NCBI GenBank assembly: GCA_937949245.1
Contig: CALEEC010000416.1
Span: forward strand, 1 to 28,172
DNA from: an uncultured Gemmataceae bacterium
GTDB taxonomy: Bacteria > Planctomycetota > Planctomycetia > Gemmatales > Gemmataceae
Length of the DNA: 28,172 nt
Reading direction: 5' to 3'
A program made the position numbers and the translations under genes. Under the pieces are notes generated by a model that saw nothing but the letters and a program-made list of their open reading frames with translations, had not been told where the DNA came from and did not search any database. Each line of letters begins with the position of its first letter. Positions within the stretch are counted from its first letter, which is position 1. Below are positions 2,158 to 22,227 of this stretch, one piece after another.

Positions 2158-2457
2158 CGCAAAATCTCATCAAACCGGGCGATGTCCATCAAGCAAAATC
2201 TATTGTAGGCAAGAAGCGCCGCGAAGGAAGGCAATCCGCGGCAGAAGCAATCTCAAAGCGATCATAACCTGGAAAATCTATCTTCTGCCTAAAGTTCCTA
2301 CGGTTCGCAGAACCGGAGCAAAACTCGTGAAGTGTGTTTCATGAAATGCCGATCAATTAATTGCTGCGATAGGATGCGATAACTTGGGAACATCTCGATA
2401 AATCTAGGTTTCAGCCTTACGTTGGTGTGTCAAGCCTCGAATGAGGAGAGCGTAAAT

Positions 2458-4899: not shown

Positions 4900-4951
4900 A
4901 AAGTAGGCTTTGGGGAATTTAAGAACAAATCGGGAGCAAAGGAAATATATC

Positions 4952-5314: not shown

Positions 5315-5361
5315 ACTTCTTGAGTTTTGGCCGTGTCCTCTTCATTCTGGAGCGATTTTTA

Positions 5362-6381: not shown

Positions 6382-6693
6382 GGGAATTCTCTCGATAATA
6401 ATTCGGATGATGGGGATGCCTTTTCGTGGTGGTTGCAGGGCTTCGTGCATCTAGGTGTCCCCCGAGTCTTGAGTAAATGAGTATCTCACCCTTCGTTCCT
6501 GTTCTTATACTGCTGCGCTCGGCTTTTGCTTCGTGATGTGTGAGAATTCCAACGGTTTATGAATTTGCGAACAACTCTTATTTTATCTCATTAAAACTGC
6601 CTCTCTGTCAGAACCGCCATCGCTGGCTATGATGTCTCTCGCGGTTGGGGGATTTTATCTCGCGCGGTTTGGTCCGTGGGGGGGATTGTTGGT

Positions 6694-7719: not shown

Positions 7720-8034
7720 CCAGCGAGCGGGCGGGTCGTTGCAACCATCGCGAAGCGATCGTTCGTTGTTGATGTGTTATAGACCCAACGACTGGCGTCG
7801 TCGGCTTCTTGCGCTTTGATATGGCGAGCCAGCGAATGGAATGGCGAGCCGACAGATGTCCGTCGCCGGAGGTAATCACCCGACGCCCGATGTCTCAACT
7901 AGGCGAGCCGGCAAACGTGAGTCGACAGAGGGGGTTGAGACACGGCGGACTGACGCCCGCCGCTCTGGGTGCGGTCGGCATCACTCCGCAGGATTCGAGG
8001 TCGATCGATGAGGCTCTGAAATGGAGGCAAGCGC

Positions 8035-8820
8035 GTGAGCCGATTGCGACACGAGTGGCAAGCGCTGCTGACCGCGATCCAGTTTCTGACGCGGGTGCCG
8101 GTTCCGGGAGGGATGAATCGCCCCGATCCTGATCGGTCTTTGCTTCGTTCGTCGGTGCGTTATTATCCGTTGATCGGCGGAGGTATCGGTGGCATAACGG
8201 CGGGGGTGGCTTTGTTGGCAGCGCAACTTTGGCCGATCAGCGTGGCTGTCGCCTTGGCACTGACCTTCGAGGTCTGGCTGACCGGAGGTTTTCACGAAGA
8301 CGCGGTTGCCGACTGCTGTGATGCCTTTGGCGGGGGGTGGACACGCGACGACATTCTGCGAATTCTGAAAGATAGCCGAGTCGGCAGTTTCGGGGGTCTC
8401 GGGTTGGCCCTCGCTTTGCTGATCCGCTGGAGTGCTTTTGCCGCGGTGCCCACGGAACAATGGTTGATCGTCGGCTTGGCCTCGGGCGGTTTGGGACGCT
8501 GGTCGATCGTGCTGTTGATGACGTGGATTCCTCCGGTTGCGGAACGGTCGAGTCTCGCCAAAGATGTCGGCGAACGGATGTCGGTTTCCGAATGCATTGC
8601 CGCATCGGGGTTGGCATTGCCGGCAACGATCGGTTGGGGAATGGCAGAACCGATGCGGCTACTGTTGGGAATTGGATTACTGATACTAGCTGTGCTAGGG
8701 TGGGGCCGATACCTTTGGCGACGCATTCACGGTGTCACCGGCGATTGCCTGGGCTTGATGTGCTATGGGGGACAACTTTTGATCTTGTTGACGGCATCGT
8801 TCCAGATGCCAAGGGGTTGA
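8035..8820 (+). CDS. cobS: Adenosylcobinamide-GDP ribazoletransferase (cobalamin 5'-phosphate synthase), polytopic membrane protein
   Basis: …LLTAIQFLTRVPVP… is the CobS signature. ~260 aa with multiple hydrophobic helices. GTG start at 8035 with a GGAGG RBS 6 nt upstream. Located between cobT and cobC. Confidence 0.8.
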   Translation: MSRLRHEWQALLTAIQFLTRVPVPGGMNRPDPDRSLLRSSVRYYPLIGGGIGGITAGVALLAAQLWPISVAVALALTFEVWLTGGFHEDAVADCCDAFGGGWTRDDILRILKDSRVGSFGGLGLALALLIRWSAFAAVPTEQWLIVGLASGGLGRWSIVLLMTWIPPVAERSSLAKDVGERMSVSECIAASGLALPATIGWGMAEPMRLLLGIGLLILAVLGWGRYLWRRIHGVTGDCLGLMCYGGQLLILLTASFQMPRG

Positions 8821-8826
8821 CCAGAA

Positions 8827-9441
8827 ATGGATCGATTGGTCATTTTGCTGCGTCATCCCGAAGTGGCGGCCCAAGGGAGGTGTTATGGCATCACCGAGGT
8901 GCCCTGGAGCCAGCGCGGACATAAGCAAATGATCGAGTTGACCAAGCGTTGGGGCGAAGAACGGTTCGATGCGATCTTCCACAGTGGCTTGAGCCGTTGT
9001 TCGCTCGTGGCCCAGGCTATCGCGCAACAACATCGCGTGCCAGTGCCAGTTTATGAAGATCACCGTTTGCGCGAGCGGCATTTCGGTGTCTGGGAAGGTC
9101 GATGGTGGGACGACATCTATGCCGAAACCGGCGATGCCATGCTGGGCATGATCCGCGACCCGCAAGCCTGGCGTCCGCCTGGAGGAGAGACGACCTTCGA
9201 GTTACGCGATCGAGTTTGGGCATGGTGGAACGATTTGCCGAGCAATGGTCGCTGGTTGGTCATCAGTCACGGTGGACCGATCGCGGCATTGCTCGGAACG
9301 CTGACAAGGCTCCCCGTGGAACAATGGCCCCGTCTCATTCCCCCACCAGCCACCACGATCGAAGTGCATGCCTGCATGAAAGACGATTCCGCCGACGATT
9401 CCTCAACCTCAATGCTTACCGTGATCGTGCATCCTCGCTGA
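8827..9441 (+). CDS. cobC: Histidine-phosphatase (phosphoglycerate-mutase) family protein, by context alpha-ribazole-5'-phosphate phosphatase
   Basis: N-terminal LLRHPE (RHG-type catalytic His motif) and …ISHGGPI… second His motif. 204 aa. 6 nt downstream of cobS. Confidence 0.7.
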   Translation: MDRLVILLRHPEVAAQGRCYGITEVPWSQRGHKQMIELTKRWGEERFDAIFHSGLSRCSLVAQAIAQQHRVPVPVYEDHRLRERHFGVWEGRWWDDIYAETGDAMLGMIRDPQAWRPPGGETTFELRDRVWAWWNDLPSNGRWLVISHGGPIAALLGTLTRLPVEQWPRLIPPPATTIEVHACMKDDSADDSSTSMLTVIVHPR

Positions 9442-9522: not shown

Positions 9523-10911
9523 CTACGGCAATCGTGGTCGGGGCGGATACGCAGTCGGATAACTGGGCGGGGGGATCGGATTGTTCGGCAGCGGGGCGAA
9601 GGGAGATTCTTTCAAGCCACCGCTAGGCCGAACCGCTCCGCCGATGCCGATCAATTCGGGATGCCGGGCCAGTTTGTCGGCGAACGTCTCAAAGTCCTGC
9701 AAGATGCGATCGACGCGTGGCAGAACTTTGTTGATAGAACTGATGGTGTCGGTCAGCGCATGATACAGTTTGGAGTCGGTCAGCAGCATTTGCACCGTCC
9801 CTTCCGCTCGGCCGATGGCACGGGCCAGTTCGCGGATTTCGCTAAGCGCTGCATCGAGGTTCCGCGAGGCCGACTCGATGTTCTTTGTAACTTCCTCGGC
9901 ACGATCGCCCAAAGGTTTGGTGAACCGTTGAATGTCTTTGATGACCAATTCGACCTCGGGAAGATTCTTGTTGACGCTCTGGACGGTTTTGCTCGTATCT
10001 TGCAGGACGTTGTTGAGGGTGACGGCCACCTGGTTTAAGGTCGAGGCAATGTCATTGGCTTGCCGTAGCAGATTGGCAATTTGTCTCTGATTATCGGGGG
10101 TAAAAGTTTGTCCGATGGCATCGACGGTGGTTCGGAACGATTTCAGGGTGGTGTTGAGGACCGAGTCATCCTTCTGAATCAGTTCCTGCACATCGCGTGC
10201 GACTCGGTCGAAGTTAGCCAAGGTGATGCGTGCTTGCTCGGCGGTAGCGCGAACTTCCGGTCCGACACTCTTGAAAGCCGCGACCGTATCGCGAATGGTG
10301 TCGTTGGTGCGTCGCAATTCGGGGGCAATCTCGCGTGCGGTTCGGGTGAGATCTCGCACTTCTGTGAGGGTGTCTTTGAACGCCGGAATCAGCTCATCGA
10401 GTTTCTGGACCGAACGGCGGATTTGTTCCAACGATGCCTGCGCGGTCGGCAGCACGTCGGAAGCCTGGGTAAACAGTTCACGAGCATCGGGAGGTGGGAG
10501 GCCGACTAAGGTGCTGCCCACAGGGATGGGATCGCCCAGATCGGGCGATTTCCGTTCTTCGCTCCGCGGAATCAGGTCAATCGACGCGTCCCCCCCTAAG
10601 AGACTCCGCGACAACGCGGCGGTTTCTTTGCTCCGTGGCGGGTAGCGCGGATCGATCTTCACATGAATGCGGACCTGTCCGGTGGTCGGATCGAGTTCCA
10701 ACGAATCGACTTCGCCAATCTTCACTCCCGAACGGCGAATCGGCGTCCCGGGATTGATTCCCGTCGCATCGGGGAACAAGAACGTGTAACGATCGCGACG
10801 CTCGAACAAACTCGGCGCTCCGCCGAACAGTATGACCAAGCCGCCAAGTAGGATCAAGCACCCCGCCACGAACAGACCAAGGCGAAATTTCAGGGTACGT
10901 TCGTTGCTCAT
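9523..10911 (-). CDS. MCE/MlaD-family protein with a long C-terminal helical extension and Pro-rich tail
   Basis: N-terminal TM (LGLFVAGCLILLGGLVILFGG). An MCE domain follows (…YTFLFPDATGINPGTPIRRSGVKIGEVDSLELDP…VRIHVKIDP…). Then ~300 aa of heptad-like helical sequence. C-terminal PLPNNPIPPPSYPTAYPPRPRLP. Confidence 0.75.
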   Translation of the reverse strand: MSNERTLKFRLGLFVAGCLILLGGLVILFGGAPSLFERRDRYTFLFPDATGINPGTPIRRSGVKIGEVDSLELDPTTGQVRIHVKIDPRYPPRSKETAALSRSLLGGDASIDLIPRSEERKSPDLGDPIPVGSTLVGLPPPDARELFTQASDVLPTAQASLEQIRRSVQKLDELIPAFKDTLTEVRDLTRTAREIAPELRRTNDTIRDTVAAFKSVGPEVRATAEQARITLANFDRVARDVQELIQKDDSVLNTTLKSFRTTVDAIGQTFTPDNQRQIANLLRQANDIASTLNQVAVTLNNVLQDTSKTVQSVNKNLPEVELVIKDIQRFTKPLGDRAEEVTKNIESASRNLDAALSEIRELARAIGRAEGTVQMLLTDSKLYHALTDTISSINKVLPRVDRILQDFETFADKLARHPELIGIGGAVRPSGGLKESPFAPLPNNPIPPPSYPTAYPPRPRLP

Positions 10912-11272
10912 CGTGGACCTCGTTCATATGCTAGGGAGCCTGAAAAGTCCCCGACAGCACTTCGCCGCGATGGAGTACCGGCTATCTTTTATCGGCCGAA
11001 TCAATGGGGGAAAACACCTCGTGACGATTTTTTCGGTTCTACATGCAACTTCATCGGGACAAGGTCAGGATCATGATTCGTCAATTGCAATAGGGCATCG
11101 ATTCCTACGCAGCGGAAAATTCGCGGAGCAAATCGGAGAATCCGCTCAAGTCTTCGGGTCGGCACAACCGATACGCTTAAGGATGCGGGATGACGGCGAA
11201 TTGCACGGACCGTATTCCCAGCGATCTGAGGATTCGTGTATGACCCCCGCTCCTCACGAAAGGAGAAGACGC

Positions 11273-12727
11273 ATGGCCCGAATCCGTTCGAGCCTGCTCC
11301 TTTTGCTGTTGTGCGGAACTTGGGGCGTCCCGGAACCTTGTTTCGCCCAAGGGGAGCTGGTGCCGACGTATTCCAACATTCGTTCCTTACGCATCGGCTT
11401 TGGCATCGATCAAAGCCGCAAGATCCAAGAAATTCGCTTGTATGCCTCGTGGAATAAAACGCCTTGGGTGAAGGTCGGTACGGCACTGCCGACGCACCGA
11501 GCTTTCGAGTTCAAAAGTGATCGGGATGGCGAGTTCGAGTTCGCCGTCCAGGTCGTCTACGAAGGCGGGGCCATCGAGCCGCCAGTCCATGCGTTGCGGC
11601 CGTATCAGAAGGCGATTATCGACACAACGGCTCCGAATGTGGTGATGCGTCCGATCCAAGGTTCCGGCAATCAACCGGGGATCGAATGGGAAGTTCGCGA
11701 CGCGAACTTGGATGCCAGTAGCCTACGCTTGGAGTACCGTTGGCCCGGTCAGAATGATTGGATTCAATTTCCCGAAGCGATCAGTCCTCGTGGTTCGACC
11801 ACTTGGCCGCTCAGTCCGGGGCAGCGCTTGGAGGTGCGCATCTTGGCCGCAGACTTGGCCAAGAATCGTACCGTCTCCAATACGTTGACGATTCCGGGCA
11901 ACATCGGCAGCGAGATTCAGTCGGGCGGAGCACCACCGACCAGCCGTCCTGGAAGTGGAGGCTCTCTAGGCGGAAGTCTGTACCCGAACGCGAATGCGGG
12001 AGTGGCCCCACCCGCGAATATGTTTTTCGTGCCGAGTCGGAATATCGTTCTGACGGTAGGGGTGGTGAAGGAAGGCCCGTCGAAGATCGTCAGTCGGGAA
12101 CTGTGGGTCAAACCTGCCAATCGGGAATGGCACAAAGCCCCCCGGGAGCCACGGCAGTTGCCCGCAGACGATGGCAAACCGGATCGGCTCAAGCTGGTTT
12201 ACGAAGCGGAGGGGGACGGTCTGTACGGCTTCACGGTAGTGGCCAAAAGTGGGGTGGGGATCAGCGGACGGATTCCGCAGCAGAACGATGCACCGCAAGT
12301 GTATGTCGAAGTAGACACGGTCAAGCCAGTGGTCAAATTCAAGGATGTGAAAGTGATTCCCGGAGCAGAGAATCACAACGTGGTGCGGATTACTTGGGAA
12401 GCCAGCGATAAAAACCTCCTCCCTGATACGCCGATCAATCTGGAATTCGCTACCGATCCGAAGGGGCCGTGGGAAGAAATCGCTATGCGGCAGCCCAACA
12501 GCGGTTTCTACGAATGGACCCCGCCTTACCGTCCGCCTTATCGCTACTGGATTCGTATTCGCGCCGTCGATCGTGCTACCAACGTCGGCGAAGCGATCTG
12601 GAAAGAGCCGGTGACGATTGATCTGGAGGTGCCCGAGGTGCAGATTTTCGATGTGTCTCCGATGACCTCAGACCCGGCATCCAACAATCAAGCCAATCCT
12701 AATCCTGGCTTGGTGCTACCGCAGTAG
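11273..12727 (+). CDS. Secreted protein composed of ~4 tandem beta-sandwich (Ig/FN3-like) repeats, with a Gly/Ser/Pro-rich linker
   Basis: Start moved to ATG 11273 (AGGAGAAG RBS). It gives a classic signal peptide, MARIRSSLLLLLLCGTWGVPEPCFAQG. A recurring module W-x-(A/V)-x-D-x-NL…L-(E/R)-(Y/F)…W…(I/V)RA-x-D-x-A-x-N is visible four times. The track's upstream extension to 10832 would overlap the mlaD-like gene. Confidence 0.6.
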   Translation: MARIRSSLLLLLLCGTWGVPEPCFAQGELVPTYSNIRSLRIGFGIDQSRKIQEIRLYASWNKTPWVKVGTALPTHRAFEFKSDRDGEFEFAVQVVYEGGAIEPPVHALRPYQKAIIDTTAPNVVMRPIQGSGNQPGIEWEVRDANLDASSLRLEYRWPGQNDWIQFPEAISPRGSTTWPLSPGQRLEVRILAADLAKNRTVSNTLTIPGNIGSEIQSGGAPPTSRPGSGGSLGGSLYPNANAGVAPPANMFFVPSRNIVLTVGVVKEGPSKIVSRELWVKPANREWHKAPREPRQLPADDGKPDRLKLVYEAEGDGLYGFTVVAKSGVGISGRIPQQNDAPQVYVEVDTVKPVVKFKDVKVIPGAENHNVVRITWEASDKNLLPDTPINLEFATDPKGPWEEIAMRQPNSGFYEWTPPYRPPYRYWIRIRAVDRATNVGEAIWKEPVTIDLEVPEVQIFDVSPMTSDPASNNQANPNPGLVLPQ

Positions 12728-12760: not shown

Positions 12761-12880
12761 GGGCGAGGCAAGCATCCCGCATCATTTTGGGGCGGGGCGC
12801 AAGCATGCTGCGCCGTTTGGGGGCGAGGCAAGCATCCCACACCATTTGGGGGGCGGAGCAAACATGCCTCACCGTTTTTT
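12761..12880. repeat. Four imperfect ~30-bp tandem direct repeats filling the gap between convergent genes
   Basis: Units at 12761-12790, 12791-12820, 12821-12850, 12851-12880. Consensus ~GGGCGAGGCAAGCATCCCRCAYCATTTTGG. Unit 2 contains the hairpin GGCGCA-AGCATGC-TGCGCC. The last unit overlaps the final codons of the HflC-like gene. Confidence 0.7.
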
Positions 12881-13810
12881 GGGAGCGGGAGGCACGCTGA
12901 GCGAGATGCCCTCTTGCGATAGTTCGCGGTCTAGCGGAATGAAGGTCGCACGCTTCTCCCTGAGCGTGGCAATGATCTTCTCCGTTTCTTCCCACCAGAT
13001 GGCGCTGAGTAATTGCGGATTGTTCTGACGGAGCCGTTGGAACTGTTCGGCCCGTTCACGGAAAGCCTGGGCTTCCGCCAACGCTTGGTCTTTCACCGAC
13101 TCGACGTAAGCGGAAGTGAGTTGTTCCAGACGGTACTTTTCCGAAAGTGCTTGGCGTTCGCGTTGCTTGGCTTCTTGGCGGGCATTCGATTCTTGGGTAC
13201 GCATCGTGGTTTGGGCGCGATTGACTTCTTGGAAGGCGTTCAGCACCGGTTCAGGAGGTTGCAAATAACTCACGTTGGCTTGCTGGACACGGACGCCCAG
13301 GCGATAAGGTTCGAGCCGCTGTTGCAGTCGTTCGATTAGCCAAGTGGGGAGGGCGGCATTGCCGGTGAGCAAGACTTCATCGACGCGGTGTCCGGCCGTC
13401 CATTCTGCGAGGAGGGATTCCGTTTGCCGGGCCAAGACCGCTTCCACGCGATCCCGATGCAGGAAGTAATCTTCCAATGCTTGGTCGGTTTCCGCGACGC
13501 GATAATCGAGGGTCACTTGCACGTCGACAAGGTTCCGATCGCCGGTCAGCAATTGTCCTGCGGGGGTCGGCTGGCCGAGCAGGTCGCTGGTAGGCTCGAA
13601 TCCCACCGTCAAACGTCTTACCGAAGCAATCGAGATGCGATGCACTTGGTCGATGCCATAGGGCAGGCCGATCCAGAGTCCCGGTCCGGGTTTGGCGACA
13701 ATGCGTCCCCACCGCTGCACGATCGCTCGTTCTTCCGGTCGAATTTGCGCGATGCCGGTGCTGAAGTAGCCGAGCACAAGCAAAAGCAGGAGCCAATAAC
13801 GTCCTTTCAT
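12869..13810 (-). CDS. SPFH/band-7 domain protein, HflC-like member of an HflK/HflC pair
   Basis: N-terminal TM (YWLLLLLVLGYFSTGIA) directly followed by an SPFH domain (…RAIVQRWGRIVAKPGPGLWIGLPYGIDQVHRISI…). C-terminal coiled coil. ATG overlaps the upstream stop by 4 nt (ATGA at 13807-13810). Confidence 0.8.
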   Translation of the reverse strand: MKGRYWLLLLLVLGYFSTGIAQIRPEERAIVQRWGRIVAKPGPGLWIGLPYGIDQVHRISIASVRRLTVGFEPTSDLLGQPTPAGQLLTGDRNLVDVQVTLDYRVAETDQALEDYFLHRDRVEAVLARQTESLLAEWTAGHRVDEVLLTGNAALPTWLIERLQQRLEPYRLGVRVQQANVSYLQPPEPVLNAFQEVNRAQTTMRTQESNARQEAKQRERQALSEKYRLEQLTSAYVESVKDQALAEAQAFRERAEQFQRLRQNNPQLLSAIWWEETEKIIATLREKRATFIPLDRELSQEGISLSVPPAPKKR

Positions 13811-14928
13811 GGTGTTTTGTTCTCGGGAGGCAGGGGCATCGGCGTGGTGAGCATGGGCACAGCGGGTGTGCCTTTGTTCGACGGCATCTGAAACAACCAG
13901 CGAAACGGCCCCTGCGTCGTCGATAGCAGAAACGTAGCGGTAGAGTCCGAAAACAGTTCGCGTAACGCCTTGCGTTCGCGTAGCATGGCGTAGAATTCGG
14001 GGTCGAGGGCGTGAGCCTGATTGCGAATCCGGTCAGCTTCGATATCCGCTTGATCTTTGCGGAGTTGACTTTGGATCGCGGCCGAGCGTTCAATGGTCTG
14101 GCTACGGGCTTCGGCTTCCGCGGTGATCGCGTCGGCGCGTTCCCGGCCTTGGGTGGCGTAGTCGGTCGCTTTGAGCATGCGATCGCTCTTGATGCGTTCA
14201 TAAATGCTGGGCCGCACCGTCTCGGGATAATTGAAGCGGCGCAGACGGACATCGACCAACTCGATGCCGTAGGTGGCAGCCACTTCGCGGAGCTTTTCGG
14301 TTTTTTCTTCCTCCCCGGCACGAATCGCTTCCAATCCGAGCAGTTGCCGGCGAATCCGTTCCATCCGGCGATCGATCGATTCCAAATTGCGTGCTTGCGC
14401 CCAATCTCGCCAAGCGGGGAGCTCCATGACGGGGCTGGCAGCAACCCCGACAATAGTGCCAACGGTCGTGCCAATATCGTCTACTTGAATCAGGTCGTCG
14501 AACGGCATGCGACTGATGACAGCCGCCAAGCGATTGCGAATACGGGAGCCCAGCACTTGCTTGGCTTGTTCTGCGGTGCCTACGGTGCGTACGAAGCGAT
14601 CGACCGAGTCGGCGTCGGGGATGCGCCAACAAACATACGCATCGACGGCGATGGTTTTGTCGACGGTGCTGTTGAGTCGATCGCGGGTCAGGGTTTCGGT
14701 GGGAGTCAGGTCGAAAATCTGCAATCGGCGATCGACCCGCTGAACCGCTTCGATGGGCCAAGGGAACTTGAAGTGCAAGCCTGCTTCGGTGTCACCATCG
14801 CGGGTGACGATCGGCTGGCCAAAGCGGGTTACATAGGCGTATTCTGTTTTGTCTACAGTGTAAGCGGCAGAGATCGCCCAAGGAATGAGGAGCAACGGTA
14901 AGCCATACATCAGCACAAAGCGGCGCAT
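13807..14928 (-). CDS. SPFH/band-7 domain protein, HflK/HflC family (upstream partner)
   Basis: N-terminal TM then …YAYVTRFGQPIVTRDGDTEAGLHFKFPWPIEAVQRVDRRLQ… SPFH core. Long Glu/Arg-rich coiled coil. ATG at 14928 with a GAGGGA RBS. Confidence 0.8.
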   Translation of the reverse strand: MRRFVLMYGLPLLLIPWAISAAYTVDKTEYAYVTRFGQPIVTRDGDTEAGLHFKFPWPIEAVQRVDRRLQIFDLTPTETLTRDRLNSTVDKTIAVDAYVCWRIPDADSVDRFVRTVGTAEQAKQVLGSRIRNRLAAVISRMPFDDLIQVDDIGTTVGTIVGVAASPVMELPAWRDWAQARNLESIDRRMERIRRQLLGLEAIRAGEEEKTEKLREVAATYGIELVDVRLRRFNYPETVRPSIYERIKSDRMLKATDYATQGRERADAITAEAEARSQTIERSAAIQSQLRKDQADIEADRIRNQAHALDPEFYAMLRERKALRELFSDSTATFLLSTTQGPFRWLFQMPSNKGTPAVPMLTTPMPLPPENKTP

Positions 14929-15006
14929 CGAGCCATCCCTCAGAAACTAGCACCAGGGGCTATGACGGATTCTAACAAACCCAAGGTGTTCGGACAGCTA
15001 GCCAAT

Positions 15007-16656
15007 TTATCCGGGGGGATGATCTTCGCCACGAAGTCGGCTGCCAGCTTGTTCCAAGATGTGATGCGCCATCTGATTGGCACTGTATCCCGCGGGCAGA
15101 CGCACGAAAGGTTTGCCGTATTTGTCCGCGATTTCACAGGCACGGGTGAAATCGTGGCTGGCCCAACGAATGGCAAGCACCACGACGGCGACATCTTCGC
15201 GACCAATCATGGGTTCAAAGGTCGTATACGACTGATGCTGTTTGGTGGGTATCCAGATGAGTTCGCTCAGGTCGAAGGCGGATTCCAAGGCTTGCCGCGT
15301 CTCGGGGCGTTCGTCGCCACCAATCAGGACCAAAGCGCGTTTCCGGAGCAATTCGCGGAGTTGTTGCACCTTCTCAGACAAAGGAGCGGCTGAATCGTCT
15401 TCTTCGTCGGGTTCGGAGCGTTCCGTCACACTTTGTCGAAACCGCTCAATTTCTCGCACGACCAGTTGCATCGAACGCGGCAGCGCGTCCACTGGTCGCG
15501 GCAATTTGTCGATGATGGGCAATAGAAAATCGCGGATTTCCTTGCTCGACGGGGGAGTACCTCCTTCCAGCAGTCCTTCGATCGCGTGGAAGATGCCCTC
15601 CCAATCTTCGGTGTGATCGATCAGCGGATGATCGAGGATCAGACCGGTGCGATGCTTCAACTTGCTAAGCAATTTCTTGCGATGCACCGCTTGTTTGTTC
15701 ACTTGGCCGAATTCCTCGGCTAGTTCTTCAATTTTTTGGCGGATGGCGAGCGAACCGCGAGGATCGGCGTAACTCTCCCGACGCATGTAGTTCGGTATGG
15801 GAATGTGCCGTGCCTTGCCACAATCTAGCAGCCAAAAGTACATGTCCATCTGATCGCGGTCTTTCTCGACTCGGAATTCCTTGGCGGCCCAGCGAAGTTG
15901 GCATTGTGCCTCGGCCGACAGATACAACGCCAGACGAACCTTTTCATCGGTGACGTGGGGGTTGTGAACCATTTTCAGCAGCATTTCGGCGGCAGCCGCG
16001 ACGGTTTCGTAGCAGACCGCCAATAGCTCGTAAGCACTGCGATCGAGCGGCGTGGGGGTTTCCGGGTGAGAGGTCCACAAGAAGCAATCGCGTTCGGCCC
16101 GGGCTTTGTTGAGGATCTCCTCGTCGCGGGGGGCAATAACGCGCTTGAAATCGACCCCTTGGCTCAGAAGGCGTTGTCGTTCGCCGGCCCAACGAGCGCC
16201 TTCGGCTTTCAAGCGACAACGTCGCGTGATCAAGCGCAAAATTTCTTCCAGGGGTTCGACTCCGTGTGGTCGGCGATCTGCCAACGATTCGGAAGGAGAT
16301 TCCCCACCGCGTGACCGGGGGGGCAATTCCACGATGGGAAAATGGCTCCAACTGCTTGAGATGCCCAATTGGGCCGCCAGCGATGAACGCGGCCGATCTT
16401 CTCCCCCGGCAATAGCAGGCGGAGTGGCAGCGGTTGGCATCCCCGAAGTCGCGGCCGAGGTCGAGCGGGGCGAGGGGGAGGCCTCAACAACGGTCGTATT
16501 CGGCGGGGCAGCCAAACGTTTTTCGGCAGGTTCGGCCAACTCCAACAGAGTTCGCCCCAACACCACCAAGAACCGACGCAAGGCTTCATCTTGGGCCGCT
16601 TGAGCCTGCCAGCGTTGGGCCAAAGGTTCTAAAGCTGCAATTAAATCTGCAAACAT
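15007..16656 (-). CDS. Hypothetical cytoplasmic protein (549 aa) whose C-terminal ~100 aa resemble DUF2325
   Basis: ATG 16656 (MFADLIAALEPL…) preferred over the track's TTG at 16737, which would overlap the upstream stop (TTGA). C-terminus …RALVLIGGDERPETRQALESAFDLSELIWIP…DVAVVVLAIRWASHDFTRACEIADKYGKPFVRLPAGYSANQMAHHIL matches, from memory, the DUF2325 pattern (vlivGG … Dlvvv…vSH… ak..gkP.v). It has a Pro/Ser/Ala-rich low-complexity N-terminal segment. Co-oriented between the ATPase-SPFH fusion and hflK/C. Confidence 0.55.
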   Translation of the reverse strand: MFADLIAALEPLAQRWQAQAAQDEALRRFLVVLGRTLLELAEPAEKRLAAPPNTTVVEASPSPRSTSAATSGMPTAATPPAIAGGEDRPRSSLAAQLGISSSWSHFPIVELPPRSRGGESPSESLADRRPHGVEPLEEILRLITRRCRLKAEGARWAGERQRLLSQGVDFKRVIAPRDEEILNKARAERDCFLWTSHPETPTPLDRSAYELLAVCYETVAAAAEMLLKMVHNPHVTDEKVRLALYLSAEAQCQLRWAAKEFRVEKDRDQMDMYFWLLDCGKARHIPIPNYMRRESYADPRGSLAIRQKIEELAEEFGQVNKQAVHRKKLLSKLKHRTGLILDHPLIDHTEDWEGIFHAIEGLLEGGTPPSSKEIRDFLLPIIDKLPRPVDALPRSMQLVVREIERFRQSVTERSEPDEEDDSAAPLSEKVQQLRELLRKRALVLIGGDERPETRQALESAFDLSELIWIPTKQHQSYTTFEPMIGREDVAVVVLAIRWASHDFTRACEIADKYGKPFVRLPAGYSANQMAHHILEQAGSRLRGEDHPPG

Positions 16657-16733
16657 ATGGCTAACCTTTCTACTTCCTTCGGTCCCAGAAGCACATCGGT
16701 TCTTGACGGCCGAACAACGCAGCAAACAAGCCC

Positions 16734-19700
16734 TCAAGGACCATCTTCCTTAGCGGGAAGGCGAACGGGACGCTCGTTGGTGGATGTCAAAGGGACGAAT
16801 CGCTGTTCCAGTTCCATCAGAAAGAGATTCAATCGACTTGGAGAACCTTCGTTGTCGACTAAGGTTAACGGACGCCGGCGCAGAGCAGACACGAGAGTTT
16901 CCCAATAAAGACGAGAATCCAGCAGTTGACGATGGATACGCAGACGAGATTCCCGTTGTTGGGCATATTCGGCTAACACCCATTCCCACGGGACACCATG
17001 GGCGAAGGCCTCCACGGCATGGGCTTGAAGTTCTTGTTCGATGGTCGAAGGTAGTTGGGTGCGGGCGCGATACCAACTTTGAAAGACCTGCCAAGTGGCT
17101 TGAGCCTGCCGGATTTTTTCTTCCGCGTCCGATTCGGCCAGACGGATCGAACGATTGGCTTGGGCCTGCGCCTCGCGTTTACGACTCAGTGCGCGCGTCT
17201 CGGCTTCGTTGATTTGCCGTTGCGCTTCTTCGGAGGCTTTGGCGACCTCGTGATAGGCCGGGACCACGGCCAACGGTGGATGCAGGTCATGAATCGCCAA
17301 ACCGGTTAAGCGGATGCCGATGCCTTGGGGAGACACACGCTGAATCCGTTGATCGATGCGTGCCAAGGCTTGGCGTTGGAAATCTTCGCGTTCCGTGGTC
17401 AGCACCTGCGTAAAAGGGCGTCCGGCGATCCATTCGCGAACCACGGATTCGGTGGCCCAACGCAACAGTTCTTCGGGTTGACGCACCGTGAACAGATAAC
17501 TGCGCGGGTCGCTGATCTGGTAATGCACGCTCACCAACACTTCCACCAGGTAATCATCTCCGGTGAGCATGCTAGACTCGTCGGGAATCGGACGGATGCC
17601 TTCGGCGTGGGGATTGCTCCAAATCGGAGCGTCACTAACCACGACTCGGCGAACTTGCTTCTCTTGGGCAAGTCCAATCACTCCTTGGGAAGAGCGTGTC
17701 CGATCTTGTTGGGGCAGCGAGCGGAACCCCACCTCGATCATCTGCACGCGATCGGGTTGCAGTCGCGTTACGTTTTCAATCGGCCAAGGCCAGCGTAGCC
17801 ATAAGCCAGGCGTCAAATCGGTCGCGAGCGGACGACCGAAGCGTTGAACAATGCCAACTTCGTCTGGTCCGATGCGAACCAAGCAGGTCGCGGCCCATGC
17901 TATGCTCGCAAGTATCAGCAAGAACGCAAGTATCTCGCGCCACTGATGTGACAATTCGTGCAGCAGATCGTCCAACTGCCACTGATCCAACACGCGATCG
18001 AGTTTGGCCACTAGCGAACGCAAGGACTGGCCCCAAGGATGCTCGCGCAGGCGATCAAACATCAGCAACCGCATCGAGTTGAGCAAAACGGCCAATGAGC
18101 CGGCTTGGTGATACAACACTCCTACCAAGGGGGCTTTTTCGTACCAATCGGGCGAACTGGCGAATAATGGCCAAAGCCAGCCGGTGAGGGCCACTCCGAT
18201 AAAATTGACGGCGAAAGCAAAAATCAGGATGTTTTGCTGAATGATCCGAACCGTCTCTCGGGAAAGGCGAACGAGCAATGGCAGCGGACGTAAGGCCTCG
18301 CCCATCAATACGATATCGCCGGCTTCCGCGGCAATGTCCGTCCCTTTAGCACCGATAGCAATGCCGACACTCGCTCGAGCTAGGGCAGGGGCGTCGTTCA
18401 CGCCGTCACCAACCATAGCGACACCGTGAGGCGAGCGTGGCCCGTTGAGCTTTTCCCAGAGGGTGAGGGTGGGGGTCGCCGGCGCGACTTGGGGAGGAGT
18501 ACGAAGCGTTTGTTCAAGCTGTTCGATGTACTCCAGTTTTTGCTGGGGCAACAACTCGGCACGGACTTCGGTCAAGGGCACCTGACGAGCAAGGGCATCG
18601 GCGACCGGTTGTCGATCGCCCGTCAGCAGCACCAGGGGAACGATGCCTAGTTCGCGTAGTTCGGCCAATACGCCGGCCGCTTCGGGGCGGACCCGATCGC
18701 GGGCACCAAGCAGCCCCAACAGCGTGGTTCCACGTGCTACCCCCAGCGAAGTCAGGCCGTCCTGATCGAGGCGTGCTAGCAGTTGCGTGGCCTGTTCGTT
18801 CCACTCGACCCCTTGTTCGAGTAGGAATCGGCGATTGCCGACGTGGAGGATCGAGCCGTCGATGCGTCCCTGGACTCCCCCCCCGGGATGAGCAACAAAG
18901 TCCTCCACGGCCGGTAGAGCCAATCCGCGTTCCTGGGCCGAGCGAACGATCAGTTGGGCCAGCGGATGCTCACTCTTGGCTTCAACAGCCGCGGCGAGAG
19001 TGAGAAGTTCCTGTTCCGAGATGCCCGGCAACGGCAGCAACTCGCCGAGTTCTAATTCGCCCTCGGTGAGGGTGCCGGTTTTATCAAAAGCGATGGCTCG
19101 CACCTGGGCCAAACGTTCGAGTGCGGCTCCACTTTTGATCAGGACTCCGGTTCCCGCGAGACGTCCCAAAGCGGCAATGATTGCCGCGGGAGTGGCCAGA
19201 ATCAAAGCACACGGACATGCAACCACCAAGACGGCCAAAGTCGGATAGGTGCTGACACTGACAGCTGCCTTCCAGGTGGGCTTGGAACCATCGGGGCGAG
19301 TCGAACGCAATTGATGATAAACGCAGTTGCCGACGAAGGTCAGAGCCGCCAGGGCGAGGACAACAGGCAGAAACCACCGGGCCAATCGGTCGGCATGACG
19401 TTCGATGGGGGATTTTGCTTGTAGCGCCTTGGCGGTCAAGTCAATCACCTGGCCGGCAACGGTTTGCTTAGCCACTTTCTGAGCCTCGATGGTGAGGGTG
19501 CCGAACTGATTGACCGAGCCGGCCAAGACCAAGTCGCCGGGTTTTTTGTCTTGGGGGAAACTTTCTCCGGTCAAGGCACTGGTGTCGACGGTCGATTGAC
19601 CTTCCAGAACGACGCCATCGGCAGGGATTTTTCCCCCCGGTTTGACTACGATCCGATCCCCCACTTGCAGTTCTTGAGTGAAAATCCGCTGTTCTTGCCC

Positions 19701-20150
19701 ATCGCGGAGTATCCAACAACGGATCGGAAATAGTTCGGATAGTTTTCGCAAGGCGTTCTGTGTGCGGGCAAAGGTAAACGCTTCCAAGCATTCACCGACC
19801 AAGCCGATGAAAACGACCTCCGCAGCGACGAGAGGTTCGCCGATGAGAATCGCGGCAATGCAGGCGATGGCGAGCGCAAGATCGGCTCCCAGTCGGCCCT
19901 CGAATAAGGACTCCAACGAGGTGTAAAGAATGCGTGCCCCGCCGAACACGGCAGCGATCATGGCGTAGCGATAGCCGAACAGTTCGCGGTTCCAACTTGG
20001 GAGCGACCATCCTTGCGTCTGCAACCACGATTGAACGATCGGCCATAAATCGAAACCGAGCAACACCCCGATCAATCCTGTCAACGAATACAAAGACAGA
20101 TTGCGCGGAGGATCAAAAACTTGCTCGGTATGTGTAATCTCACGGTGCAT
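16734..20150 (-). CDS. P1B-type heavy-metal-translocating P-type ATPase (no N-terminal metal-binding domain) fused in-frame to a C-terminal HflK-like SPFH/band-7 domain with coiled coil (1138 aa)
   Basis: Residues ~1-697 (nt ~18060-20150) are the ATPase core. It carries TGES (actuator), the CPC motif in ACPCALILATP, DKTGTLT phosphorylation site, the SEHP (HP) motif and GDGVNDAPAL, then …HQAGSLAVLLNSMRLL at the end of TM8. A linker follows. Residues ~740-757 form a TM helix (ILAFLLILASIAWAATCLV). Residues ~758-1138 (nt 16734-~17930) are an SPFH domain (…IGPDEVGIVQRFGRPLATDLTPGLWLRWPWPIENVTRL…) plus an HflK-style Glu/Arg/Ala coiled coil. No stop codon or frame change separates the parts. Confidence 0.8.
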   Translation of the reverse strand: MHREITHTEQVFDPPRNLSLYSLTGLIGVLLGFDLWPIVQSWLQTQGWSLPSWNRELFGYRYAMIAAVFGGARILYTSLESLFEGRLGADLALAIACIAAILIGEPLVAAEVVFIGLVGECLEAFTFARTQNALRKLSELFPIRCWILRDGQEQRIFTQELQVGDRIVVKPGGKIPADGVVLEGQSTVDTSALTGESFPQDKKPGDLVLAGSVNQFGTLTIEAQKVAKQTVAGQVIDLTAKALQAKSPIERHADRLARWFLPVVLALAALTFVGNCVYHQLRSTRPDGSKPTWKAAVSVSTYPTLAVLVVACPCALILATPAAIIAALGRLAGTGVLIKSGAALERLAQVRAIAFDKTGTLTEGELELGELLPLPGISEQELLTLAAAVEAKSEHPLAQLIVRSAQERGLALPAVEDFVAHPGGGVQGRIDGSILHVGNRRFLLEQGVEWNEQATQLLARLDQDGLTSLGVARGTTLLGLLGARDRVRPEAAGVLAELRELGIVPLVLLTGDRQPVADALARQVPLTEVRAELLPQQKLEYIEQLEQTLRTPPQVAPATPTLTLWEKLNGPRSPHGVAMVGDGVNDAPALARASVGIAIGAKGTDIAAEAGDIVLMGEALRPLPLLVRLSRETVRIIQQNILIFAFAVNFIGVALTGWLWPLFASSPDWYEKAPLVGVLYHQAGSLAVLLNSMRLLMFDRLREHPWGQSLRSLVAKLDRVLDQWQLDDLLHELSHQWREILAFLLILASIAWAATCLVRIGPDEVGIVQRFGRPLATDLTPGLWLRWPWPIENVTRLQPDRVQMIEVGFRSLPQQDRTRSSQGVIGLAQEKQVRRVVVSDAPIWSNPHAEGIRPIPDESSMLTGDDYLVEVLVSVHYQISDPRSYLFTVRQPEELLRWATESVVREWIAGRPFTQVLTTEREDFQRQALARIDQRIQRVSPQGIGIRLTGLAIHDLHPPLAVVPAYHEVAKASEEAQRQINEAETRALSRKREAQAQANRSIRLAESDAEEKIRQAQATWQVFQSWYRARTQLPSTIEQELQAHAVEAFAHGVPWEWVLAEYAQQRESRLRIHRQLLDSRLYWETLVSALRRRPLTLVDNEGSPSRLNLFLMELEQRFVPLTSTNERPVRLPAKEDGP

Positions 20151-20737: not shown

Positions 20738-20775
20738 TAGCTAGAAAGAAAACTGAGGAAGATGATCTTCCTCAG
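20738..20775 (-). terminator. Rho-independent terminator of the rplM-rpsI operon
   Basis: Perfect palindrome CTGAGGAAGA-TGA-TCTTCCTCAG (20753-20775). On the minus-strand transcript it is followed by UUUUCUUUCUAG (complement of 20741-20752). It lies 33 nt after the rpsI stop. Confidence 0.75.
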
Positions 20776-20807
20776 CGATCGATAAAAGCAGGGGGGCTTG
20801 GAAACAA

Positions 20808-21305
20808 TTAGCGCTTCGAGAATTGGAACGATTTACGAGCGCCTTTGCGGCCGTACTTCTTGCGTTCCTTCATCCGGCTATCCCGGGTGAGGAAACCGGA
20901 GTCGCGGAGTTTTTTGCCCAAGCTGGTTTCGCTAGGAGCGGATGCCTCGGGAGCAGGCGTGCCTTCTGTGGTAGCTAAGACCGGCGTGGTGACAGGTTTG
21001 GGAGCTGGAGGCGTGTCCGGCTCGAACATGGCTTTGATCGCCCGAGCGATCCCTTGGCTGGTGGCACCGGCTTGGCCACTTGGTCCCCCCCCGCGGACGT
21101 TCACCCAAATATCCAAGCGGTTTTGCAGATCGGTGATCTCCAAAGGACCGTAAATCGCGGCGCGGTCCTTTTCTTCGGTGAAGTAATCGCGCAACGGACG
21201 GCCGTTGATCAGGATTTGTCCTTTGCCTTCAGCAATGCGGACACGAGCGACAGCCGTCTTGCGACGACCGGTGCCGAAGGTGTAGCTTTTCTTCGTTTTC
21301 GCCAT
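20808..21305 (-). CDS. rpsI: 30S ribosomal protein S9 with an internal Pro/Ala-rich low-complexity insertion
   Basis: …GTGRRKTAVARVRI…, …GGGPSGQAGA…, C-terminal …GFLTRDSRMKERKKYGRKGARKSFQFSKR are canonical S9 motifs. A ~35-aa insertion (EPDTPPAPKPVTTPVLATTEGTPAPEASAPSE) precedes the C-terminal block. Confidence 0.9.
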   Translation of the reverse strand: MAKTKKSYTFGTGRRKTAVARVRIAEGKGQILINGRPLRDYFTEEKDRAAIYGPLEITDLQNRLDIWVNVRGGGPSGQAGATSQGIARAIKAMFEPDTPPAPKPVTTPVLATTEGTPAPEASAPSETSLGKKLRDSGFLTRDSRMKERKKYGRKGARKSFQFSKR

Positions 21306-21970: not shown

Positions 21971-22042
21971 GGCTCCGTCGCCAAGTGGTAAGGCAACGGT
22001 TTGCAAAACCGTCATTCCCCGGTTCAAATCCGGGCGGAGCCT
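21971..22042 (+). tRNA. tRNA-Cys (anticodon GCA)
   Basis: Acceptor stem GGCTCCG/CGGAGCC. D-arm with AGTGGTAA. Anticodon stem ACGGT/ACCGT with loop TTGCAAA, anticodon GCA. T-arm CCGGTTCAAATCCGG. Discriminator T. CCA not encoded. Confidence 0.85.
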
Positions 22043-22227
22043 CCTTCATTACAAATACGTTTGCAGTAATCCCTCCCCATGTTTGCATTCATTTTTATTT
22101 TACTCCCATCCATAGGAAAAATCTCGTCGAAAAGAGCGTGATTCTCTCCTATAAAAGGGGTATACTCGAATTTGCCCACGAATTGCCGCAAATTTTGCCC
22201 ACCTGTTTCCTGCACTTTTGATCGGGG

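What the first reader, a model, noticed from the sequence alone, without database searches (positions are those of the whole stretch)
12869..20150. Co-directional operon: P1B ATPase fused to SPFH, then a DUF2325-like protein, then an HflK/HflC-like pair, with no FtsH in sight
Four co-directional minus-strand genes sit with short or overlapping junctions (16734/16656, 15007/14928 and an ATGA overlap at 13807-13810). The first is a heavy-metal P-type ATPase whose C-terminus continues, with no stop, into a transmembrane helix plus an HflK-like SPFH/band-7 domain and coiled coil. Two further stand-alone SPFH proteins of the HflK/HflC type follow. HflK/C are known to form large cages around the FtsH protease. 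An SPFH module covalently attached to a metal pump, plus a dedicated HflK/C pair, would be a different client for an SPFH cage, namely an ion pump in a membrane microdomain or cage rather than a protease. I do not recognise this as a described system. No MerR/ArsR/CsoR-type metal regulator is nearby, which is also atypical for metal-efflux loci.
Basis: partly seen in the sequence, partly recalled or inferred. Interest (0 to 1): 0.85.

Follow-up and report, generated by a model that had tools for sequence, protein, structure and literature searches.

The report
Metal pump fused to HflK scaffold
A heavy-metal export pump is permanently joined, in one protein, to an HflK-type membrane-scaffold module and is usually encoded next to its HflC-type partner; the arrangement recurs in hundreds of species, I found no paper on it, and it offers a natural test of what bacterial scaffold cages do besides holding the FtsH protease.

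Summary
Window 16734-20150 (-) is one 1138-aa ORF: an intact P1B metal ATPase, a ~40-aa cytoplasmic linker, a ninth TM helix, then a complete HflK-type SPFH module that by topology faces the periplasm. It is not an artefact. An independent assembly (98.8% nt identity) has the same ORF with mostly synonymous differences, and the fusion occurs in at least 537 species-level genomes. These are mainly Gemmatales, but named members also come from Isosphaeraceae and Bryobacteraceae.

The conserved module has three genes, not four: fusion, HflC-like, HflK-like. That order is found in 37 of 66 informative loci and in cultured Tuwongella immobilis. Fusion plus HflC alone also recurs. The 'DUF2325-like' gene is a lineage-specific insertion whose homologues lie in unrelated contexts.

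Best reading (inferred): the fused protein takes the HflK position in an HflK/C-type ring, tethering the pump to an SPFH cage or microdomain. 'No FtsH nearby' says little, and FtsH may still be involved. W844, H848 and H957 are invariant in fused SPFH domains and absent from the free partners, which hints at a metal-related adaptation.

I found no paper describing this fusion. Verdict: new variant of a known kind, interest about 0.65.

The parts
16734..20150 (-). Whole fusion gene (1138 aa): P1B ATPase, linker, ninth TM helix and HflK-type SPFH module
   Evidence: ORF. Pfam and NCBIfam domains. At least 120 homologous clusters with the same architecture. AlphaFold pLDDT 80.3. An independent assembly has the same ORF.
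18060..20150 (-). P1B ATPase core (aa 1-697): helices MA, MB and M1-M6 plus the A, P and N domains. Motifs TGES, CPC (C312/C314), DKTGT, HP (H395), GDGxNDxP, and M6 YHQxGS (H681). No N-terminal HMA domain.
17940..18059 (-). Cytoplasmic helical linker (aa 698-737) between M6 and the SPFH membrane anchor
   Evidence: AlphaFold helices 700-736. The segment contains several Arg/Lys residues (R700, R702, R711, K716, R719, R738; read from the translation). It is variable across the wider family.
17877..17939 (-). Ninth transmembrane helix (aa 738-758), which places the SPFH module on the periplasmic side
   Evidence: Hydropathy peak of 2.56 at 740-758. AlphaFold helix 738-754.
17190..17876 (-). SPFH/Band_7 domain (aa 759-987) with a fusion-specific insertion (about 816-848) and the invariant residues W844, H848 and H957
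   Evidence: Pfam Band_7 at 64.1 bits. TIGR01933 hflK at 130 bits. E. coli HflK is the best PDB match. Fusion-specific invariants.
16734..17189 (-). Coiled-coil and C-terminal tail (aa 988-1138) plus the stop codon: the rest of the long CC1 helix (962-1031), two further helices, and a disordered tail with a conserved KVLxD...PGxR.LFL motif
15007..16656 (-). Inserted gene (549 aa from ATG 16656; the ORF extends to TTG 16737). Cytoplasmic protein of a small family with a weak DUF2325-like C-terminus. NOT part of the conserved module.
   Evidence: Only 14 homologues. The three contexts checked hold no ATPase or SPFH gene. Absent from 84 related loci. DUF2325 is sub-threshold, matching 9 of 14 family members.
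13807..14928 (-). HflC-type SPFH partner (373 aa; N-terminal membrane anchor, SPFH domain periplasmic by inference)
   Evidence: Band_7 at 76.1 bits. TIGR01932 hflC at 127.5 bits against a cut-off of 134.4. Orthologues lie directly downstream of the fusion in 51 loci, in Tuwongella and in L090 and L091.
12869..13810 (-). Free HflK-type SPFH protein (313 aa), overlapping the hflC-like stop codon by ATGA
   Evidence: Band_7 at 61.7 bits. TIGR01933 hflK at 107 bits against a cut-off of 159.4. Present after the hflC-like gene in 37 loci. Overlap confirmed.
20752..20776 (-). Terminator-like hairpin (11-bp stem plus a T-run) after rpsI. It separates the ribosomal-protein genes from the fusion operon.

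Best explanation
The locus encodes a pump-scaffold module.

Shown:
- One polypeptide joins a catalytically intact P1B-type metal-exporting ATPase to a complete HflK-type SPFH module. The ATPase has CPC in M4, an invariant His in M6, and is closest to P1B-4 pumps.
- The two halves are linked by a ~40-aa cytoplasmic linker and a ninth TM helix.
- The gene is usually followed, in the canonical hflK-then-hflC order, by an HflC-type gene and often by an extra free HflK-type gene.

Inferred from an 8+1 TM count and from the N-terminal anchors of the partners: all three SPFH domains face the periplasm, as in E. coli HflK/C.

Inferred mechanism: the fused protein occupies HflK positions in an alternating HflK/C-type ring. 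This tethers one or more pump copies to, or inside, an SPFH cage or membrane microdomain. The free HflK-type subunit would dilute the number of pumps per ring.

Inferred and weaker, on purpose: the likely purpose is to confine, stabilise or control the turnover of the pump. Export may also be coupled to a confined periplasmic space, given the invariant fusion-specific W844, H848 and H957 on the SPFH domain.

The middle 'DUF2325-like' gene is an unrelated insertion.
For: - Architecture and catalytic motifs.
- Nine TM helices and the fold.
- The SPFH part is closest to E. coli HflK by sequence (E 7e-16) and by fold (9cz2, 7vhq, 9paw at E about 2e-14).
- Both partner proteins have N-terminal signal-anchor helices.
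- Synteny: fusion then HflC then HflK in 37 loci; fusion then HflC only in 5 (plus 2 on cut contigs); fusion alone in 22.
- Cultured Tuwongella immobilis has the three genes with a 12-nt gap and a 4-nt overlap.
- Three of four HflC orthologues looked up from the HflC side sit directly behind a fusion; the fourth does not.
- No other conserved neighbour in 83 loci.
- In a rough NJ tree the deep branches all carry the three-gene form, and 'fusion alone' is concentrated in one derived clade.
- The CC1 helix is exactly 72 residues from the PP motif in fused, free-K and free-C proteins alike, which is compatible with side-by-side packing in one ring.
- Breadth: at least 537 species-level genome hits; 673 clusters in the 50%-identity representative library at E<=1e-30, with 47 of the top 150 full-length fusions at 35-53% identity to the query; named members from Isosphaeraceae and Bryobacteraceae.
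- Precedents: SPFH domes enclosing transporters (PMC12407830) and scaffolded P1B pumps (PMC13460109).
Against: - There is no direct evidence of co-assembly. I could not run multimer prediction or obtain model coordinates.
- In about a third of informative loci the fusion stands alone (22 of 66, including Frigoriglobus, Fimbriiglobus ruber and Gemmata). One HflC orthologue stands alone in Telmatocola. Either the partners are encoded elsewhere in those genomes or the fusion can work without them.
- Whether bulky pumps can fit at HflK positions of a 24-mer is untested.
- The HflK and HflC assignments fall just below NCBIfam's equivalog cut-offs.
- The transported metal is unknown. The CPC + HQxxS combination fits none of the P1B subgroup signatures I compared it with (from memory, apart from the sCoaT alignment).
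Confidence: 0.6

Rival explanations
1. This is the organism's ordinary HflK/C-FtsH machinery, and FtsH remains the client. Fusing the pump onto HflK places a P-type ATPase next to FtsH, either for regulated degradation and quality control or so that the pump's state modulates FtsH. This is compatible with, rather than exclusive of, the tethering model.
For: - The closest relatives of all three SPFH proteins are HflK and HflC.
- NCBI names Isosphaeraceae and Bryobacteraceae fusions 'FtsH protease activity modulator HflK' and names the Tuwongella, Telmatocola and Zavarzinella partners 'protease modulator HflC'.
- The gene order fused-K then C mirrors hflK-hflC.
- The P-type ATPase MgtA is cited as a known FtsH substrate (PMC13220708).
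- ftsH is normally unlinked to hflKC (my own knowledge), so its absence from the window is uninformative.
Against: - No FtsH gene lies in this window or is conserved in the 10-kb flanks of 83 loci.
- Fused SPFH domains carry invariant residues (W844, H848, H957) and an insertion that the free partners lack. E. coli HflK has Asn and Arg at the positions aligned to H848 and H957. This suggests a specialised function.
- I could not test whether these genomes hold a second, canonical hflKC pair.
Confidence: 0.3
2. The fused protein forms a homo-oligomeric SPFH ring on its own, as stomatin does. The neighbouring HflC and HflK genes form a separate complex and are merely co-located.
For: - The fusion occurs alone in 22 informative loci, among them complete or cultured genomes.
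- Homo-oligomeric SPFH domes exist: human stomatin chains are among the next-best fold matches.
Against: - Tight, recurrent adjacency with an HflC-type gene, with short gaps or overlaps.
- The fused SPFH is specifically HflK-like. To my knowledge HflK is an obligate hetero-oligomer partner of HflC.
- CC1 length is identical in all three paralogues.
- In the NJ tree the three-gene form looks ancestral.
Confidence: 0.15
3. The long ORF is an assembly or sequencing artefact (a missed stop or frameshift near 17930-18060), or a strain-specific accident.
For: None found.
Against: - An independent assembly has the same uninterrupted ORF, with a synonymous-dominated substitution pattern.
- At least 120 close clusters and 47 distant full-length representatives carry the same architecture.
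- The fusion is present in complete genomes: Frigoriglobus tundricola CP053452.2 and Tuwongella immobilis LR593887.1.
Confidence: 0.01
4. All four genes, including the DUF2325-like one, form one functional system.
For: The genes are co-directional with short junctions. No convincing terminator lies between them. The same order is seen in the 98.8%-identical twin contig.
Against: - The middle gene is absent from all 84 related loci.
- It has only 14 homologues, and the three contexts checked hold no SPFH or ATPase gene.
- It has no TM helix.
- Its DUF2325 match is below threshold.
Confidence: 0.05

Closest known systems
E. coli HflK/HflC (SPFH cage around FtsH; PDB 7VHP, 7WI3, 9CZ2)
   Same: The fused C-terminal module and the two downstream proteins are HflK-like, HflC-like and HflK-like by HMM, by sequence and by fold. 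Each has a single membrane anchor followed by SPFH, a long coiled coil and a C-terminal tail. Gene order is K then C. The inferred orientation is periplasmic.
   Different: A whole P1B ATPase replaces HflK's short cytoplasmic N-terminus. A third SPFH gene (free HflK-like) is often present. Scores fall below the NCBIfam equivalog cut-offs. Fused domains carry an insertion and the invariant W844, H848 and H957, which are absent from the free partners; E. coli HflK has other residues at the two aligned positions. A link to FtsH is untested.
P1B-4 metal ATPases (for example sCoaT, PDB 7QBZ)
   Same: Best solved sequence match (E 2e-97). No N-terminal HMA domain. M6 aligns to the HEGST motif of sCoaT with the His conserved. 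All catalytic motifs are present.
   Different: M4 is CPC rather than SPC. M6 is HQxGS in Gemmatales-type members and HExxS in others. The metal specificity is unknown. The C-terminal extension (a TM helix plus about 380 aa of SPFH module) is unique to this family.
Stomatin dome enclosing AQP1 and UT-B (PMC12407830)
   Same: An SPFH oligomer corrals transport proteins in a membrane patch, which is the same logic as a pump in an SPFH cage.
   Different: That association is non-covalent, the dome is homo-oligomeric and eukaryotic, and it sits on the cytoplasmic face. Here client and scaffold subunit are one polypeptide, and the scaffold is the HflK/C-type periplasmic kind.
PacL-Ctp 'effluxosomes' of Mycobacterium tuberculosis (PMC13460109)
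   Same: P1B ATPases are encoded with a dedicated small membrane scaffold that is needed for pump stability and clustering into membrane platforms.
   Different: The review makes no mention of SPFH or flotillin for the PacL proteins. They act as separate polypeptides through the pump's cytoplasmic metal-binding domain, and they are metal-induced resistance systems.
P1B-5 ATPases with a C-terminal hemerythrin-like domain (from my own knowledge of the P1B literature; not checked here)
   Same: A precedent for a P1B pump carrying an extra C-terminal domain.
   Different: That domain is soluble and cytoplasmic. Here the added module crosses the membrane and belongs to a cage-forming scaffold family.

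Membership tests
P1B-type (heavy-metal) P-type ATPase | Catalytic motifs TGES, DKTGT and GDGxNDxP, plus the P1B-specific HP dipeptide in the N domain | tested here: met
   All are present and conserved in 121 close sequences. D356, K357, H395, D582 and D586 are invariant in 47 distant representatives. TIGR01525 scores 548.7 bits against a cut-off of 346.
P1B-type (heavy-metal) P-type ATPase | CPx-type motif in M4 and an eight-helix membrane domain (MA, MB, M1-M6) | tested here: met
   ACPCAL, with C312 and C314 invariant. Helices appear in the AlphaFold model and the hydropathy scan. The best fold matches are P1B structures.
P1B-type (heavy-metal) P-type ATPase | N-terminal HMA metal-binding domain (common but not universal) | tested here: not met
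   No HMA hit in Pfam. The N-terminus runs straight into helix MA.
P1B-4 subgroup | SPC in M4 and HEGxT in M6 | tested here: not met
   M4 is CPC. M6 is YHQAGS, aligned to the HEGST of sCoaT with only the His and the hydroxyl position kept. The protein is P1B-4-like but not a clean member.
SPFH / Band_7 superfamily | Pfam PF01145 above its gathering score, plus the SPFH fold followed by a long coiled coil | tested here: met
   Scores of 64.1, 76.1 and 61.7 bits against a cut-off of 23.6 for the three proteins. Model helix 962-1031. Fold matches to HflK, stomatin, erlin, prohibitin and flotillin.
HflK (NCBIfam TIGR01933 equivalog) | Score at or above the curated cut-off of 159.4 bits | tested here: not met
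   The fused module scores 130.3 bits and the free 313-aa protein 107 bits. Both are HflK-like but below the equivalog threshold. NCBI nevertheless names some fused relatives HflK.
HflC (NCBIfam TIGR01932 equivalog) | Score at or above the curated cut-off of 134.4 bits | tested here: not met
   127.5 bits, marginally below the cut-off, over the full length of the model. Orthologues in Tuwongella and Telmatocola are named HflC by NCBI.
HflK/HflC system | Adjacent hflK-hflC genes in that order, both proteins anchored N-in with periplasmic SPFH domains | tested here: met
   Fused-K then C adjacency in 51 loci and in L088, L090 and L091. Topology is inferred from 8+1 TM helices and from the N-terminal anchors. 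The topology itself is an inference, not an assay.
HflK/HflC system | Physical association with, and modulation of, the FtsH protease | not testable with these tools
   No ftsH in the window or conserved in the flanks. Whole genomes could not be scanned, and no interaction test was possible.
DUF2325 (PF10087), for the middle gene | Pfam gathering score of 33.6 bits | tested here: not met
   17.4 bits, E 0.005. Nine of 14 family members give weak hits, the best at 1.7e-5. At most this is a distant DUF2325-like C-terminal domain.

The most novel reading that the evidence does not exclude
The HflK/C-type ring built from pump-fused subunits encloses a periplasmic chamber into which the tethered P1B pumps export their metal. 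The invariant, fusion-specific His and Trp residues on the SPFH domain (W844, H848, H957) bind or relay that metal. This would be a membrane-attached metal-handling nanocompartment, for metallating or sequestering in the periplasm, and a function for SPFH cages unrelated to proteolysis.
Probability: 0.12. Interest if true: 0.9.

Novelty: new variant of a known kind. Interest (0 to 1): 0.65.

Why it matters
What bacterial SPFH cages do, and how they choose their clients, is an open question. FtsH has been the only well-defined bacterial client. Transporter clients have only recently been seen, for eukaryotic stomatin.

Here evolution has welded a client to an HflK-type scaffold subunit and kept the HflC partner beside it across hundreds of species and at least two phyla. 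The client is an ATP-driven metal pump. That gives a defined client-scaffold pair for structural work in culturable organisms (Tuwongella immobilis has the three-gene operon).

It would also test several things directly:
- whether clients sit inside or outside the ring;
- whether scaffolding controls pump stability or activity;
- whether FtsH is required.

For the P-type ATPase field it defines a large unclassified P1B subgroup (CPC plus H-Q/E-x-x-S) with an unprecedented membrane-crossing C-terminal module. For annotation, it explains why these proteins are inconsistently named either 'P-type ATPase' or 'HflK'.

Tried and rejected
1. Artefact or frameshift hypothesis. Rejected by the independent assembly and the substitution pattern and by hundreds of homologues.
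2. Four-gene operon including the DUF2325-like gene. Rejected.
3. Other conserved neighbours (regulator, metallochaperone, FtsH). All-against-all clustering of ORFs from 83 loci found none apart from HflC, HflK and antisense shadow ORFs.
4. Riboswitch or known RNA element upstream of the fusion. No credible match: nothing reached a gathering score, and the relaxed scan gave only two weak hits well below threshold.
5. Link to the nearby cobT, cobS and cobC genes (cobalt?). This neighbourhood is not conserved in other loci, so I treat it as coincidence.
6. Assigning the metal from the M4, M5 and M6 motifs. Inconclusive: CPC plus HQxxS matches none of the subgroup signatures I compared it with.
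7. Checking whether an FtsH-contacting Arg of HflK (R191, cited in PMC12048511) is retained. My residue numbering from the partial PDB alignment did not land on an Arg, so I dropped the test.
8. Spatial proximity of H848 and H957. Model coordinates are not exposed, so this could not be tested.
9. Whether the same genomes hold a second hflKC pair or where ftsH lies.
10. Literature searches for the fusion found nothing. The library lacks most subscription-journal papers, so a prior description cannot be excluded.
Full report
**Observation.** The 1138-aa product of 16734-20150 carries Pfam E1-E2_ATPase (140-332), Hydrolase (350-593) and Band_7 (759-987), all well above their gathering scores. The 373-aa and 313-aa products downstream each carry Band_7. 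NCBIfam places the N-terminal 695 residues in ATPase-IB_hvy (548.7 bits against a cut-off of 346). It finds hflK-like similarity in residues 760-1041 (130 bits), hflC-like similarity in the 373-aa protein (127.5 bits against 134.4) and hflK-like similarity in the 313-aa protein (107 bits against 159.4). The ATGA overlap between the last two genes is real. The window holds no FtsH and no MerR/ArsR/CsoR-type regulator. Its other genes are a BamB-like protein, glycosyltransferases, cobT, cobS and cobC, an MlaD-like protein, rpsI and rplM, planctomycete PSCyt/PSD1 and DUF1501 proteins, and an FtsX-like permease.

**The fusion is not an artefact.** A 98.8%-identical contig from an independent assembly (L092) has the same order: rplM, rpsI, fusion, middle gene, Band_7, Band_7. 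Across the fused ORF the two differ in 43 codons. Thirty-three are synonymous and 31 of 43 base changes are at third positions, with one in-frame indel. That is the signature of one translated, constrained reading frame. At least 120 protein clusters at 52-56% identity have the same three Pfam domains and lengths of 1058-1163 aa. They include proteins from Frigoriglobus tundricola, Fimbriiglobus ruber and Gemmata.

**Breadth.** A pattern scan of one genome per GTDB species found at least 537 stretches encoding a relative of the junction-plus-SPFH region. The best 80 all span the pump-SPFH junction and nearly all come from Gemmataceae or Gemmatales-type genomes. A profile search of 1.84 billion representatives gave 673 clusters at E<=1e-30. 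Of the top 150, 47 are full-length fusions (950 aa or more) at only 35-53% identity to the query, and all keep DKTGT, GDGxND and the CPC cysteines. Named members include Isosphaeraceae and Bryobacteraceae (Acidobacteriota) proteins. NCBI labels those two 'FtsH protease activity modulator HflK', and Pfam confirms all three domains in them.

**Anatomy of the fused protein.**
- *Membrane layout.* Hydropathy and an AlphaFold model (pLDDT 80.3) show the eight P1B helices (MA, MB, M1-M6), cytoplasmic helices at 700-736, and a ninth TM helix at 738-754. An SPFH domain, a 70-residue helix (962-1031), two further helices and a disordered tail follow.
- *Topology.* To my knowledge P1B pumps end in the cytoplasm after M6. 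The ninth helix should therefore put the SPFH module in the periplasm, which is the HflK/C orientation. The two partner proteins have N-terminal signal-anchor helices consistent with the same side. This is inference, not an assay.
- *The pump.* It looks active. TGES, CPC, DKTGT, HP and GDGxNDxP are all conserved. Its best solved relative is the P1B-4 pump sCoaT (7QBZ, E 2e-97). M6 aligns to the HEGST of sCoaT as HQAGS, but M4 is CPC rather than SPC, so the metal cannot be assigned. There is no HMA domain.
- *The scaffold module.* Modelled alone (pLDDT 75), its best fold matches are E. coli HflK chains (9cz2, 7vhq, 9paw at E about 2e-14). Stomatin, erlin, prohibitin and flotillin follow. By sequence it matches HflK and not HflC in the PDB.

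**What is conserved around it.** I ran tblastn with the four window proteins against 84 related loci.
- Fusion directly followed by an HflC-like and then an HflK-like gene: 37 loci.
- Fusion followed by HflC-like only: 5 loci, plus 2 on cut contigs.
- Fusion alone: 22 loci.
- Too short to tell: 16 loci. Ambiguous: 2 loci.

Cultured Tuwongella immobilis has the three genes with a 12-nt gap and a 4-nt overlap. Starting from the HflC side, three of four orthologues looked up lie directly behind a fusion, two of them with no free hflK. The Telmatocola orthologue stands alone. No other gene family recurs in the flanks of 83 loci. A rough NJ tree puts the three-gene form on all deep branches and concentrates 'fusion alone' in one derived Gemmata/Frigoriglobus-type clade. 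The operon therefore looks ancestral.

**The middle gene is an insertion.** It has no hit in any of these loci. It has 14 homologues in 5.8 billion clusters. The three contexts I examined contain no ATPase or SPFH gene. It has no TM helix. Its DUF2325 similarity is sub-threshold, although it recurs in 9 of 14 family members. It is an insertion specific to this lineage, present also in the near-identical twin contig.

**Mechanism.** The order fused-K then C reproduces the canonical hflK-hflC order. Fusion plus HflC is a recurrent minimal pair. The CC1 helix has exactly 72 residues between the PP motif and its end in fused, free-K and free-C proteins alike. I therefore think the fused protein takes HflK positions in an HflK/C-type hetero-oligomeric ring, and so tethers the pump to an SPFH cage or microdomain. 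The free HflK-like subunit could set how many pumps each ring carries. This step is inferred. I could not run multimer predictions.

What the tether is for is less clear. Three options are on the table:
- Stabilising and confining the pump. PacL scaffolds do this for mycobacterial P1B pumps (PMC13460109), and stomatin domes do it for AQP1 and UT-B (PMC12407830).
- Coupling the pump to FtsH-dependent turnover. The P-type ATPase MgtA is cited as an FtsH substrate (PMC13220708).
- Exporting metal into the enclosed periplasmic space.

One new observation bears on the last option. W844, H848 and H957 are 100% conserved in 77 fused SPFH domains, including 47 distant ones. W844 and H848 lie in an insertion that the 36 free HflK-like and 41 HflC-like partners lack. 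H957 is mostly Ala or Asn in those partners. E. coli HflK has Asn and Arg at the positions aligned to H848 and H957. Whether these residues form a metal site cannot be told without coordinates or experiment.

'No FtsH in sight' is weak, because hflKC and ftsH are unlinked in E. coli as well (my own knowledge). The lack of a neighbouring metal regulator is real and general, and no known riboswitch precedes the gene. This fits a constitutive or housekeeping pump as well as anything exotic. A strong terminator-like hairpin after rpsI (20776-20752) suggests the cluster has its own promoter in the 657-nt spacer.

**Novelty.** Nine full-text searches and a check of the 2009 survey of prokaryotic SPFH proteins found no description of a P-type ATPase-SPFH fusion. 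Public annotation calls these proteins either 'cation-translocating P-type ATPase family protein', 'Cu+-exporting ATPase' or 'HflK'. Both halves belong to known families, and SPFH cages with transporter clients are now known. I therefore rate this a new variant of a known kind, not categorically new. The library does not cover most subscription journals, so a prior mention cannot be excluded.

**Verdict.** Confidence is about 0.6 that the fused protein is the HflK-type subunit of a pump-tethering HflK/C-like assembly. Interest is 0.65.

Noticed in passing
window 16734-17876 (fusion aa 759-1138), especially aa 844, 848 and 957: W844, H848 and H957 are invariant in 77 fused SPFH domains, 47 of which are only 35-53% identical to the query overall. 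The free HflK-like and HflC-like partners lack them. W844 and H848 lie in a fusion-specific insertion. This may be a periplasmic metal site.
   Followed up: partly
L006, L011, L012, L030, L032, L090, L091 (fusion + HflC only); L001-L003, L028 and others (fusion alone); L089 (HflC alone): The module comes in several states: fusion+HflC+HflK, fusion+HflC, fusion alone, and in Telmatocola an HflC orthologue on its own. In a rough NJ tree 'fusion alone' clusters in a derived Gemmata/Frigoriglobus-type clade.
   Followed up: partly
window 15007-16737 (-): The inserted 549-576-aa gene belongs to a very small family (14 clusters found among 5.8 billion). It has a strongly conserved C-terminal third (...LIGGD.R...IRW.SH...GKP.VRLP.GY...) that weakly resembles DUF2325. 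There is no TM helix and no solved relative.
   Followed up: partly
window 21971-22044 (+): A tRNA-Cys (GCA) gene lies on the strand opposite rplM. It overlaps the 5' part of the mechanically listed 227-aa rplM ORF, so the real L13 start must be further downstream. Translating from 21790 gives a full-length Ribosomal_L13 match.
   Followed up: partly
window 20808-21305 (-): Ribosomal protein S9 (165 aa) matches Pfam Ribosomal_S9 in two stretches. A Pro/Thr/Ala-rich segment of roughly 40 residues lies inside the protein, where an insert would account for the split.
   Followed up: no
window about 2000-6000: G+C drops to 0.44-0.48 here, against about 0.58 elsewhere. The stretch covers a two-domain GT4 glycosyltransferase (2422-4899) and an FkbM-type methyltransferase (5311-6381). 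It may be a horizontally acquired glycan-modification islet.
   Followed up: no
window 6676-9441 (+): Genes for late cobalamin assembly (cobT/DBI_PRT, cobS, and a cobC-like histidine phosphatase) lie about 3.5 kb from a P1B-4-like pump, and the same is true in the twin contig L092. The neighbourhood is not conserved in other fusion loci, so it is probably coincidence.
   Followed up: partly
P0312, P0327, P0328, P0331, P0347, P0369, P0383, P0388 (representative-library hits): A second subfamily of fusions has M6 'FHE(L/V)(A/S)S', closer to the HEGxT of P1B-4. Most of them (7 of the 8 listed) also start with 'MHY(V/I/C)PES'. The Gemmatales type instead has 'MHRE' and 'YHQxGS'. Their taxonomic origin is unknown.
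   Followed up: no
window 10832-12727 (+): This 631-aa ORF has no Pfam match. In the twin contig the gene called on that strand is only 484 aa, so the true start is probably internal.
   Followed up: no
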